IMG/VR virus record: IMGVR_UViG_2718218402_000004
Span: 1 to 42,050 of that record
Strand: one strand, 5' to 3'
DNA from: a virus
Taxonomy: Duplodnaviria; Heunggongvirae; Uroviricota; Caudoviricetes
DNA: 42,050 bases
This document shows positions 15,001 to 18,000 of the stretch, in pieces. Position 1 is the first letter of the stretch, and every line of letters begins with the position of its first letter. Position numbers: made by a program.

Positions 15001-18000
15001 CCTGTGAAAAAAGACACGGGGGCATTTCGCCCCCGCTCACGGATTATTTCACCTGTACCACCACAAACTCATCCGGGTCCGGCAACACCATCAGCGGCGC
15101 GGACTGCGTCATGGTAAATTCACGGGCGGGATCCCCTACCGTCAGCCAGTGTTTCGGATAACGGGAAGAGGCCACCACACCTTCGGACAACGCCTGCGCA
15201 TCCTGAATGGCACCATAGCAACGAATGCCCTCTGCTGCCGTATTCCCCAGGACCAGCGAGCCCTCAGGCAGATAACGTTTTTCGGTACCGTCCTCTGCCA
15301 CATAAGACGTTTTTGCCACCACAATGGCCAGATCGCCGTAATACCCTTTGAAGGACACCACCGCGCCCAGGTCTTTCACCGCTGTTTCGAGTTGCGAATT
15401 AGAGCCGCGACGGGTATCCAGTTTTTCGCGGAACAATTTAAAGCCATTCAGCAGACGCCAGACGGTACCGTCCATAATGGCAATATTCACAAGACCGCTG
15501 GCCTGGTCGCAGTAGAGGTCAAGATCATGTGTAGGATCGAACGTGTCACGATCCTGTTTTGACCACTCCTTACCACTACCCTGAGTGATGTTATTCTTCG
15601 TCGACCTGCCAAAATCGACCTCAATTTTCTCGAACTGGTCTCCTTCCATCGTGTATTTGCCATACAGCACGGCATTCACCGCCTGCATTTCTTCCACCTG
15701 GACAATGGCGTGCTCTTCCTGTTTGAGGTTATCAGTGATGATACGCAGACGACGGTAGGCCGGGTCGTTCAGCTGAGCCGGATCTTCACCGGGAAGACGC
15801 TCAACCGCCTGCTGGTAATTAAATTCGTGTTTCGGCTTGACGTAGCCCGGACGTAACACGCGGGTTTCACCACCACGATGACGCAGCACTTTTCCTTCAA
15901 CAACCGGGGAATCTGCCGCCGTCATAAAATGGTATGCCGAAAGGGATGCTGAAATTGAGAACGAAAAGCTGCGCCGGGAAGTTGAAGAACTGCGGCAGGC
16001 CAGCGAGACAGATCTCCAGCCAGGGACTATTGAGTACGAACGCCATCGACTTACGCGTGCGCAGGCCGACGCACAGGAGCTGAAAAATGCCAGAGACTCC
16101 GCTGAAGTGGTGGAAACCGCATTCTGTACTTTCGTGCTGTCGCGGATCGCAGGTGAAATTGCCAGTATTCTCGACGGGATCCCCCTGTCGGTGCAGCGGC
16201 GTTTTCCGGAACTGGAAAACCGACATGTTGATTTCCTGAAACGGGATATCATCAAAGCCATGAACAAAGCAGCCGCGCTGGATGAACTGATACCGGGGTT
16301 GCTGAGTGAATATATCGAACAGTCAGGTTAACAGGCTGCGGCATTTTGTCCGCGCCGGGCTTCGCTCACTGTTCAGGCCGGAGCCACAGACCGCCGTTGA
16401 ATGGGCGGATGCTAATTACTATCTCCCGAAAGAATCCGCATACCAGGAAGGGCGCTGGGAAACACTGCCCTTTCAGCGGGCCATCATGAATGCGATGGGC
16501 AGCGACTACATCCGCGAGGTAAATGTGGTGAAGTCTGCCCGTGTTGGTTATTCCAAAATGCTGCTGGGTGTTTATGCCTACTTTATAGAGCATAAGCAGC
16601 GCAACACCCTTATCTGGTTGCCGACGGATGGTGATGCCGAGAACTTTATGAAAACCCACGTTGAGCCGACTATTCGTGATATTCCGTCGCTGCTGGCGCT
16701 GGCCCCGTGGTATGGCAAAAAGCACCGGGATAACACGCTCACCATGAAGCGTTTTTCCAATGGTCGTGGCTTCTGGTGCCTGGGCGGTAAAGCGGCAAAA
16801 AACTACCGTGAAAAGTCGGTGGATGTGGCGGGTTATGATGAACTTGCTGCCTTTGATGATGATATTGAACAGGAAGGCTCTCCGACGTTCCTGGGTGACA
16901 AGCGTATTGAAGGCTCGGTCTGGCCAAAGTCCATCCGTGGCTCCACGCCCAAAGTGAGAGGCACCTGCCAGATTGAGCGTGCAGCCAGTGAATCCCCGCA
17001 TTTTATGCGTTTTCATGTTGCCTGCCCGCACTGCGGGGAGGAGCAGTATCTTAAATTTGGCGACAAAGAGACGCCGTTTGGCCTCAAATGGACGCCGGAT
17101 GACCCCTCCAGCGTGTTTTATCTCTGCGAGCATAATGCCTGCGTCATCCGCCAGCAGGATCTGGACTTCACTGATGCCCGTTATATCTGCGAAAAGACCG
17201 GGATCTGGACCCGTGATGGCATTCTCTGGTTTTCGTCATCCGGTGAAGAGATTGAGCCGCCGGACAGCGTGACCTTTCACATCTGGACGGCGTACAGCCC
17301 GTTCACCACCTGGGTGCAGATTGTCAAAGACTGGATGAAAACGAAAGGGGATACGGGAAAACGTAAAACCTTCGTAAACACCACGCTCGGTGAGACATGG
17401 GAGGCGAAAATTGGTGAACGTCCGGATGCTGAAGTGATGGCAGAGCGGAAAGAGCATTATTCAGCGCCCGTTCCTGACCGTGTGGCTTACCTGACTGCCG
17501 GTATCGACTCCCAGCTGGATCGCTACGAAATGCGCGTATGGGGATGGGGGCCGGGTGAGGAAAGCTGGCTAATTGACCGGCAGATTATTATGGGCCGCCA
17601 CGATGATGAACAGACGCTGCTGCGTGTGGATGAGGCCATCAATAAAACCTATATCCGCCGGAATGGTGCAGAAATGTCGGTATCCCGTATCTGCTGGGAT
17701 ACTGGCGGGATTGACCCGACCATTGTGTATGAACGCTCGAAAAAACATGGGCTGTTCCGGGTGATCCCCATTAAAGGGGCATCCGTCTACGGAAAGCCGG
17801 TGGCCAGCATGCCACGTAAGCGAAACAAAAACGGGGTTTACCTTACCGAAATCGGTACGGATACCGCGAAAGAGCAGATTTATAACCGCTTCACACTGAC
17901 GCCGGAAGGGGATGAACCGCTTCCCGGTGCCGTTCACTTCCCGAATAACCCGGATATTTTTGATCTGACCGAAGCGCAGCAACTGACTGCTGAAGAGCAG

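What the first reader, a model, noticed from the sequence alone, without database searches (positions are those of the whole stretch)
15880..15960. Sharp head-to-head junction fusing a truncated capsid gene to a truncated nu1 in opposite orientation
On the minus strand, homology to major capsid protein E ends at about 15908-15925 (MTAADSPVVEG...). On the plus strand, homology to terminase small subunit Nu1 begins at about 15912 (SAAVIKWYAERD...). Both genes lack their N-terminal parts and the two breakpoints coincide within a few bases, with no IS element, att site or spacer. The ORF 15044-16267 in the track is a chimera reading across this joint. This means module 1 and module 2 were joined by illegitimate recombination, for example deletion of everything between the capsid gene of one inverted prophage and nu1 of the next, or an inversion; alternatively it is an assembly chimera.
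Basis: partly seen in the sequence, partly recalled or inferred. Interest (0 to 1): 0.75.

Follow-up and report, generated by a model that had tools for sequence, protein, structure and literature searches.

The report
Contig-abutment artefact between two prophages
The capsid-gene/nu1 joint is really in the deposited sequence, but it is almost certainly the point where two assembly contigs of E. coli strain D1 were pasted end to end, not a recombination event, so it is a database error rather than biology.

Summary
At window 15911|15912, a capsid gene E lacking its first 161 nt (minus strand) meets a nu1/nohA gene lacking its first 126 nt (plus strand). The joint is blunt, with no IS, att site or spacer.

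The window is E. coli D1 chromosome NZ_CP010134.1. The joint occurs in only this one of 5,426 complete E. coli genomes.

Both missing gene halves are elsewhere in the same record, each at another abrupt joint:
- The first 161 nt of E lie at record 5,047,857. Added to the window part, they rebuild base for base the intact E allele of the close relative 19KM2326N.
- cos plus nohA nt 1-125 lie at record 3,416,621-745, next to yghD. Added to the window part with one missing T, they encode an intact NohA.

The record consists of five blocks of 3,416,620, 997,435, 443,763, 191,928 and 10,779 bp. They run in strictly descending size from record position 1, and their orientations are mixed.

Re-ordering the blocks restores K-12 gene order and two intact prophages. 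Taken as real, the layout needs at least 3 inversions that re-use the same breakpoints to the base, and it turns 1.44 Mb against replication.

Verdict: size-sorted contigs were joined without gaps. Not a real feature; low interest.

The parts
15044..15911 (-). 3' 868 nt (nt 162-1029) of a lambda-E-type major capsid gene. This is the last sequence of record block 3 (record 4,414,056-4,857,818).
   Evidence: 100% identical to the 19KM2326N E allele up to 15911. Pfam Phage_cap_E positions 51-329. PGAP pseudogene 'missing N-terminus'.
15911..15912 (.). The joint J1 (record 4,857,818|4,857,819). It is blunt, with 0-2 nt of shared sequence, and is interpreted as the boundary between two abutted contigs.
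   Evidence: Base-by-base comparison with intact references of both genes. A 1-kb query across it is covered in only 1 of 5,426 genomes, D1 itself.
15912..16331 (+). 3' 420 nt (nt 127-546) of nohA/nu1 (terminase small subunit). This is the first sequence of record block 4 (record 4,857,819-5,049,746).
   Evidence: Identity to the nohA reference from 15912. Pfam Phage_Nu1 positions 43-164. PGAP pseudogene 'missing N-terminus'.
15044..16267 (-). Mechanical 407-aa ORF reading from antisense nohA into E'. It is a by-product of the joint, not a gene.
   Evidence: None of the four junction-spanning start variants exists among about 15 billion catalogued proteins.
1..15911 (-). Left arm: nleH, tail fibre, lom, J ... 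FI, E'. This is the tail and late-head end of the prophage lying between yodB and serU.
   Evidence: PGAP table. 99.9% identical to a complete prophage of 19KM2326N, in which E is intact. A tRNA-Ser att repeat lies on the yodB side.
15912..42050 (+). Right arm: 'nohA, A, W-B, C, D, E ... J, lom, stf, tfa, cif, nleG-like. This is the late half of the prophage integrated between ibsA and mdtA. Its early half, with cos and nohA nt 1-125, is at record 3,416,621-3,438,757.

Best explanation
J1 is an assembly-finishing artefact. The 'complete' chromosome NZ_CP010134.1 of E. coli D1 is a pseudo-molecule made by abutting five contigs in order of decreasing length, each in arbitrary orientation, with no N spacer. 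The contigs had broken inside mutually similar lambdoid prophages and at island or IS boundaries. Window 15911 is the last base of contig 3, which ends inside capsid gene E of the yodB-serU prophage. Window 15912 is the first base of contig 4, which starts inside nohA/nu1 of the ibsA-mdtA prophage. In the real chromosome both genes are most likely intact and about 0.1 Mb apart, and the two prophages lie in the same orientation. Shown here: the block structure, the complementary ends, the size order, and the restored gene order. Inferred: that the blocks are assembler contigs and that a person or a script concatenated them. Reads were not available.
For: 1. Uniqueness. J1 is covered in 1 of 5,426 complete genomes. 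The close relative 19KM2326N is 99.97-99.99% identical in flanking DNA and has both genes intact at separate loci.
2. Complementary ends.
- E nt 1-161 at record 5,047,857-5,048,017 plus window 15044-15911 (reverse complement) gives 1,029 nt, identical to the intact 19KM2326N E.
- cos plus nohA nt 1-125 at record 3,416,621-745 plus one T plus window 15912-16331 encodes a NohA identical in amino acids to the intact one. That rejoined sequence is contiguous in 3,539 genomes.
- The end of block 2 is the pheV-island attR, ending in ...GGCACCA. Joined to the reverse complement of the end of block 1 (downstream of yghD), it is contiguous in 684 genomes, including 19KM2326N.
3. Size order. The block sizes are 3,416,620 > 997,435 > 443,763 > 191,928 > 10,779 bp, starting at record position 1. 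The record origin is itself a discontinuity: ydfC is followed by 'stf, exactly where an IS3 ends in 19KM2326N.
4. Restored order. Block1, block2 reversed, block4, block3 reversed gives K-12 gene order and intact prophages at serU and ibsA/mdtA. Spot checks show the blocks are collinear inside.
5. Implausible as biology. As written, the layout is the signed permutation (1,-2,-4,3). It needs at least 3 inversions that re-use the same four breakpoints at base precision. GC-skew polarity flips at the block borders (+,-,-,+,+), so blocks 2 and 3 (1.44 Mb) would be replicated backwards. The att repeats of both prophages are inverted relative to each other.
6. Nature of the joints. J1 is blunt, with 0-2 nt of shared sequence. 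The one internal deletion joint in the region (E nt 213::J') shows 9 nt of microhomology.
7. Draft-quality consensus. There are single-base indels that frameshift J, K, lom and fuse W to B, and three ambiguous bases.
Against: - No read data were available, so spanning reads cannot be ruled out.
- The record is labelled complete and circular and was accepted by RefSeq.
- Block ends abut to within 1-2 nt, whereas overlap-type assemblers would usually leave overlaps of kilobases. A true reciprocal break would also give exact abutment. I explain it by contigs being cut at assembly-graph branch points, but the assembler used is unknown to me.
- About 1.9 kb (ynfN-gnsB-ynfO-cos-nohA 5') and the head region of the Qin-locus prophage were not found in the parts of the record I fetched. 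The fourth adjacency (block 3 start to block 1 start) is therefore not closed.
- The roles of the 10.8-kb block and of the E::J'-lom-stf' tail are not fully resolved.
Confidence: 0.9

Rival explanations
1. The record is correct. Strain D1 really carries a multi-break reshuffling of about 1.6 Mb: at least three nested inversions, or a one-step shattering and rejoining, with breakpoints in E, in nohA, at the pheV-island end and in the Qin-locus prophage. J1 is then a genuine illegitimate, blunt joint.
For: Reciprocal halves of E, of nohA and of the pheV-island/yghD border are all retained with no more than 1-2 nt lost or gained, as expected for breakage and rejoining. The record is deposited as a gapless circular chromosome.
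Against: - The blocks are in strictly descending size order, beginning at record position 1. The record origin is itself a breakpoint.
- At least 3 inversions must re-use identical breakpoints without any homology or site-specific sequence at them.
- 1.44 Mb would be inverted within one replichore against its compositional polarity. From general knowledge of E. coli chromosome organisation, this is strongly counter-selected.
- No other genome shares any of J1, J2 or J3.
- Two breakpoints coincide with repeat boundaries (the tRNA-Phe attR end and an IS3 end), and the E break falls at the first base (nt 162) that separates the capsid allele from the E copy carried by block 4. That is typical of assembly graphs and not of random breakage.
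Confidence: 0.04
2. A single real inversion between E of the serU prophage and nohA of the ibsA/mdtA prophage created J1. The other odd joints in the record are separate assembly errors.
For: An inversion of that one interval would generate exactly J1 (E 3' part :: nohA 3' part, divergent), and would put ibsA...serU in the inverted order seen to the right of the window.
Against: The obligatory reciprocal joint (E 5' :: nohA 5') is absent. E 5' runs on into E nt 162-213::J', and nohA 5' abuts yghD. There is no homology or useful microhomology at the breakpoints. The prophages are in direct orientation, so homologous recombination cannot invert the interval. This reading also needs assembly errors, so it explains nothing that the pure-artefact reading does not.
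Confidence: 0.03
3. J1 is a mis-join made inside the assembler, for example a chimeric long read used as a bridge, rather than a later concatenation of finished contigs.
For: A blunt joint between unrelated sequences is what a ligation-chimera read looks like. The consensus is of draft quality.
Against: It does not account for the descending size order, for the origin being a breakpoint, or for four or more such joints whose ends are mutually complementary. A palindromic missed-adapter artefact is excluded, because the two arms are only 76-100% complementary and carry different genes at the joint.
Confidence: 0.03

Closest known systems
Mis-joined or concatenated contigs in assemblies deposited as 'complete'
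   Same: The joints are abrupt and gapless and sit between unrelated sequences inside repeat-rich prophage regions. Block ends complement each other. Blocks appear in assembler output order (by length). Canonical synteny is restored by re-ordering.
   Different: Usually such joins carry N spacers or are flagged. Here there is no spacer, and RefSeq annotated the joint as two 'partial in the middle of a contig' pseudogenes. Read-level proof is lacking here.
Prophage-mediated chromosomal inversions in EHEC/EPEC
   Same: Lambdoid prophages sit at both ends of an apparently inverted chromosomal segment. Effector-carrying prophages of an EPEC-like strain are involved.
   Different: Those inversions cross over inside homologous sequence of inversely oriented prophages. 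They leave hybrid but intact gene orders, and are usually roughly symmetric about ori/ter. Here the joint is between non-homologous genes, the prophages are in direct orientation, and the reciprocal joint is missing.
Cryptic-prophage remnants with truncated packaging genes (nohA/nohD of Qin and DLP12 in E. coli K-12; general knowledge)
   Same: A Nu1-family gene next to terminase A in a lambdoid prophage; many databases label it nohA/nohD.
   Different: Those are full-length nu1 homologues left in decayed prophages by deletion. Here the truncation is matched by its missing half 1.44 Mb away in the same record.

Membership tests
Phage major capsid protein E (Pfam PF03864) | Significant match to the family profile over its full length | tested here: met
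   182 bits against a cut-off of 22.9, but only profile positions 51-329 of 329 are matched. A member, 5'-truncated in this record.
Phage DNA-packaging protein Nu1 / NohA (Pfam PF07471) | Significant match to the family profile, including the N-terminal DNA-binding part | tested here: met
   238 bits against a cut-off of 30, covering profile positions 43-164 of 164. The N-terminal 42 codons are absent here but present at record 3,416,621-745.
Inversion by homologous recombination between prophages | Breakpoints lie within sequence homologous between the two elements, which are in inverted orientation | tested here: not met
   E and nohA are unrelated. At most 2 nt are shared at the joint. The att repeats and flanks show that both prophages have the same native orientation.
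Inversion (any mechanism) | A reciprocal second joint uniting the two other broken ends (E 5' with nohA 5') | tested here: not met
   E 5' continues into E::J'-lom-stf'. nohA 5' abuts the yghD downstream region.
Illegitimate deletion joint | The DNA between the two breakpoints is lost from the genome | tested here: not met
   Both missing halves and the intervening chromosome (serU...ibsA) are present in the record.
Contig-abutment artefact (pseudo-molecule) | Ends of different blocks fit together into normal, widely conserved sequence | tested here: met
   E is rebuilt with 0 differences. NohA is rebuilt with a 1-nt gap, and the rejoined sequence is contiguous in 3,539 genomes. The island-yghD join is contiguous in 684 genomes.
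Contig-abutment artefact (pseudo-molecule) | Blocks follow an assembler-style order (by length) and the record origin is a block boundary | tested here: met
   Sizes are 3,416,620; 997,435; 443,763; 191,928; 10,779 bp. The origin joins ydfC to 'stf at an IS3 boundary of the relative.
Contig-abutment artefact (pseudo-molecule) | No sequencing reads span the joint | not testable with these tools
   No read data are accessible. The only indirect check was that junction-spanning ORFs are absent from a collection of about 15 billion proteins.

The most novel reading that the evidence does not exclude
Strain D1 genuinely carries a base-precise, multi-break reshuffling of four chromosomal blocks (about 1.6 Mb), with blunt non-homologous joints inside prophages. 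This would be a chromothripsis-like event, or at least three nested illegitimate inversions, in a natural E. coli isolate that tolerates 1.44 Mb replicated against its native polarity.
Probability: 0.04. Interest if true: 0.75.

Novelty: not a real feature. Interest (0 to 1): 0.08.

Why it matters
There is no new biology here. The practical point is that RefSeq assembly GCF_001900595.1 (E. coli D1), labelled a complete circular chromosome, appears to be five contigs pasted together.

Analyses that use it for synteny, inversions, replichore balance, prophage completeness or pseudogene counts will inherit false rearrangements. These include two falsely 'decayed' prophages that carry nleF/nleH and cif/espJ, and false E and nu1 pseudogenes.

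The case also gives a simple diagnostic for such records: complementary broken ends combined with blocks in descending size order.

Tried and rejected
1. Shared junction in other genomes. Megablast of J1, and of two further joints J2 and J3, against 5,426 complete genomes found only D1 covering each.
2. Palindromic missed-adapter PacBio artefact. Rejected because the arms are diverged paralogous modules, 76-100% complementary, and not a self-copy.
3. Homologous inversion between prophages. Rejected on orientation and on lack of homology at the joint.
4. Simple two-break inversion. I predicted an E5'::nohA5' joint near record 5.03-5.05 Mb. I found E5' fused to J' instead, and nohA5' next to yghD.
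5. A real 1.9-kb ynfN'::'nohA deletion in the Qin-locus prophage, which would explain why three block ends meet there. No genome carries that join, so it remains unsupported.
6. Exact overlap of contig ends in E. The 51-nt overlap has 1 mismatch within it, and the copies also differ at nt 162, so it is a paralogous allele and not a true overlap. The real fit is at nt 161|162.
7. The last 3.5 kb of the record as an exact duplicate of the Qin-type immunity region. It is only 98.5% identical, so it belongs to a separate prophage.
8. Exact-protein look-up of junction-spanning ORFs. They are absent.
9. Literature search by accession numbers.

Full report
**What is in the window.**
- An intact E-type capsid allele from E. 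coli 19KM2326N matches the window perfectly up to 15911 and then stops.
- An intact nohA/nu1 reference matches from 15912 onward.
- The two sides share at most the dinucleotide GA (15909-15910).
- Pfam places the minus-strand product on positions 51-329 of 329 of Phage_cap_E. It places the plus-strand product on positions 43-164 of 164 of Phage_Nu1.
- E lacks nt 1-161 and nohA lacks nt 1-126.
- The 407-aa ORF 15044-16267(-) is a mechanical read-through from antisense nohA into E'.
- There is no IS, att core or filler at the joint.
- To the left, a complete tail module runs on the minus strand; to the right, a head-and-tail module runs on the plus strand. The two arms are paralogous, 76-100% complementary, and not copies of each other.

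**Where it comes from.**
The window is record 4,841,908-4,883,957 of NZ_CP010134.1, E. coli strain D1 (dog). It is identical apart from three positions that are N in the RefSeq copy. PGAP annotates the two genes as pseudogenes, 'incomplete; partial in the middle of a contig; missing N-terminus'. A 1-kb query across the joint is covered in only 1 of 5,426 complete E. coli genomes, D1 itself. Thousands of genomes match one half or the other.

**The flanks do not fit a deletion or a simple inversion.**
- The left arm ends at nleH-nleF next to yodB.
- The right arm ends at cif-nleG-espJ next to ibsA-yegL. The chromosome then runs backwards relative to K-12 (alkA, wza...galF ... cobUST ... mtfA-serU).
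- Next comes an integrase at serU and a complete early, lysis and head region up to gene D. It is followed by the first 213 nt of E, fused to the last ~410 nt of a J gene, then lom and a truncated stf.
- A simple inversion between E and nohA predicts an E5'::nohA5' joint at this place. That joint is not there.
- Instead stf' abuts, in opposite orientation, a 10.8-kb piece of another prophage (tRNAs, Q ... dicC dicA ydfC) that runs to the end of the record.
- The record then 'closes' onto 'stf-tfaQ-pinQ-ydfK-ydfJ, starting exactly at the base where an IS3 ends in 19KM2326N.
- These further joints are also unique to D1.

**Finding the other halves.**
In 19KM2326N the nohA-A-W-B-C-D-E module lies in the Qin-locus prophage, and the left-arm module lies in a complete prophage at bioA/ybhB. 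Both genes are intact there. This strain is 99.97-99.99% identical to D1 in flanking DNA. I then walked the D1 record by K-12 gene order.
- At record 3,416,621-3,416,745, directly after the yghD downstream terminator, I found the missing nohA 5' end (nt 1-125, minus strand). It is preceded by cos, Rha, lysis genes, Q, the replication and immunity genes, and an integrase next to mdtA. This is the early half of the very prophage whose late half is the window's right arm.
- At record 4,414,055|056, the attR end of a pheV island (…TTCGATTCCGAGTCCGGCACCA) abuts a truncated ynfN of the Qin-locus prophage. That prophage continues normally into rspB and on to yodB.

**The block structure.**
The record is therefore five blocks:

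| Block | Record coordinates | Size (bp) | Content |
|---|---|---|---|
| 1 | 1-3,416,620 | 3,416,620 | ydfJ, through oriC, to yghD |
| 2 | 3,416,621-4,414,055 | 997,435 | nohA 5' ... int, then mdtA ... pheV island |
| 3 | 4,414,056-4,857,818 | 443,763 | Qin-type lysis and early genes, then rspB ... yodB, then tail ... E' |
| 4 | 4,857,819-5,049,746 | 191,928 | 'nohA ... espJ, then ibsA ... serU, then int ... E::J' lom stf' |
| 5 | 5,049,747-5,060,525 | 10,779 | tRNAs, Q ... dicC dicA ydfC |

The sizes descend strictly from record position 1, and the orientations are mixed. Spot checks at 1.0, 2.2 and 3.9 Mb agree with collinear interiors.

**The ends fit each other.**
- E nt 1-161 from block 4 plus window 15044-15911 (reverse complement) gives a 1,029-nt gene with zero differences from the intact 19KM2326N allele.
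- nohA nt 1-125 from block 2, plus one missing T, plus window 15912-16331 encodes a 181-aa NohA identical to that of 19KM2326N. The rejoined cos-nohA-A sequence is contiguous in 3,539 genomes.
- The end of block 2 joined to the reverse complement of the end of block 1 is contiguous, at 99.9% identity, in 684 genomes including 19KM2326N.
- Ordering the blocks as 1, 2 reversed, 4, 3 reversed restores K-12 gene order. It also restores a complete prophage between ibsA and mdtA, and an intact E in the yodB-serU prophage region.
- The att repeats of both prophages (the sib/ibs unit and the tRNA-Ser 3' half) are inverted relative to each other in the record, whereas integration makes direct repeats.

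**Why not real.**
- Read as biology, the record is the signed permutation (1,-2,-4,3). No single reversal repairs two adjacencies, so at least three inversions are needed. Each would have to re-use earlier breakpoints to the base, at sites with no homology and no recombinase target (reasoning).
- The GC skew of backbone DNA is +0.03 to +0.06 in block 1 and block 4, and -0.02 in blocks 2 and 3. So 1.44 Mb would be replicated against its compositional polarity within one replichore.
- Two breakpoints coincide with repeat boundaries: the CCA end of the tRNA-Phe attR and an IS3 end in the relative. The E break falls at nt 162, the first base that separates this allele from the E copy carried by block 4. 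This is how assembly graphs branch, not how random breaks fall.
- The record origin is itself a discontinuity.
- The one nearby joint that looks like a genuine deletion (E nt 213::J') has 9 nt of microhomology. J1 has none.
- The consensus shows draft-type single-base indels that frameshift J, K and lom and fuse W to B.
- No junction-spanning ORF exists in a collection of about 15 billion proteins.

**Conclusion and limits.**
J1 is best explained as the abutment of contig 3 and contig 4 in a size-sorted concatenation of contigs (confidence about 0.9). What I could not do or resolve:
- I could not inspect reads.
- I could not identify the assembler; literature searches by accession were uninformative.
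- I could not close the fourth adjacency. About 1.9 kb of ynfN-gnsB-ynfO-cos-nohA 5' and the head region of the Qin-locus prophage were not found in the parts of the record I fetched. A hypothetical ynfN'::'nohA deletion is seen in no genome.
- The placement of the 10.8-kb block and of the E::J'-lom-stf' tail in the true chromosome is unresolved.

A real multi-break rearrangement is not formally excluded (about 4%). Nor is a single real inversion combined with other assembly errors (about 3%).

**Consequences for the locus.**
If the artefact reading is right, neither E nor nu1 is a pseudogene in strain D1. The window then shows parts of two ordinary effector-carrying lambdoid prophages: nleF/nleH at serU, and cif/nleG/espJ at ibsA-mdtA.

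Noticed in passing
window 18228-20033 (indel at 18379): The head-tail joining gene W and the portal gene B are fused into one 601-aa ORF by a single extra A, relative to 19KM2326N and to lambda W. It looks like a consensus indel error rather than a natural fusion.
   Followed up: partly
window 3299-6711, 7311-8055, 34552-35152: J and the C40 peptidase (K) of the left arm, and lom of the right arm, are annotated as frameshifted. Against 19KM2326N or the other arm, the left-arm indels are single bases in short runs (6367, 7533, 8060, 8205). 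This suggests a poorly polished consensus.
   Followed up: partly
window 21536, 31373, 31437: These three positions are N in the RefSeq copy of the record but A in the window. Ambiguous consensus bases inside prophage regions that are repeated between the two arms may indicate collapsed or mixed repeat copies.
   Followed up: no
L004 14018-14070 (record about 5,048,017-5,048,069), outside the window: A second truncated E: nt 1-213 fused to the last ~410 nt of a J gene through 9 nt of shared sequence (GAAACCCGC), followed by lom and a truncated stf. It looks like a genuine microhomology-mediated head-to-tail deletion in a defective prophage, and it is unique to D1. Its nt 162-213 differ at two positions from the window's E.
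   Followed up: partly
window 2215-11739 versus 26060-35566: The J-I-K-L-M-H regions of the two arms form a long inverted repeat at 89-100% identity, including 1,166 nt that are identical. In the true chromosome these would be direct repeats about 0.1 Mb apart. That makes them a substrate for deletion, and a likely reason the assembly broke nearby.
   Followed up: no
window 1-891; just left of the window (record 4,841,273-4,841,842); window 39121-39969 and 40837-41469: Type III effector cargo sits at the tail-fibre ends of both prophages: nleH at the left edge of the window with nleF just beyond it, and cif plus an NleG-like DUF1076 protein on the right, with espJ just beyond the window. The strain is EPEC-like.
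   Followed up: no
L004 23028-26526 versus L010 372-3870 (record 5,057,027-5,060,525 versus 4,430,371-4,433,869): Two prophages in D1 carry dicC-dicA-ydfB-ydfC immunity regions that are 98.5% identical and encode identical annotated proteins. The second copy ends exactly at the end of the record.
   Followed up: partly
L012 26747-27100 (record about 3,416,746-3,417,100): A canonical lambda-type cos site (GGGCGGCGACCT plus the cosB region) lies just upstream of the orphan nohA 5' fragment next to yghD. The packaging site of the right-arm prophage is therefore present, but placed 1.44 Mb from its terminase genes in the record.
   Followed up: partly
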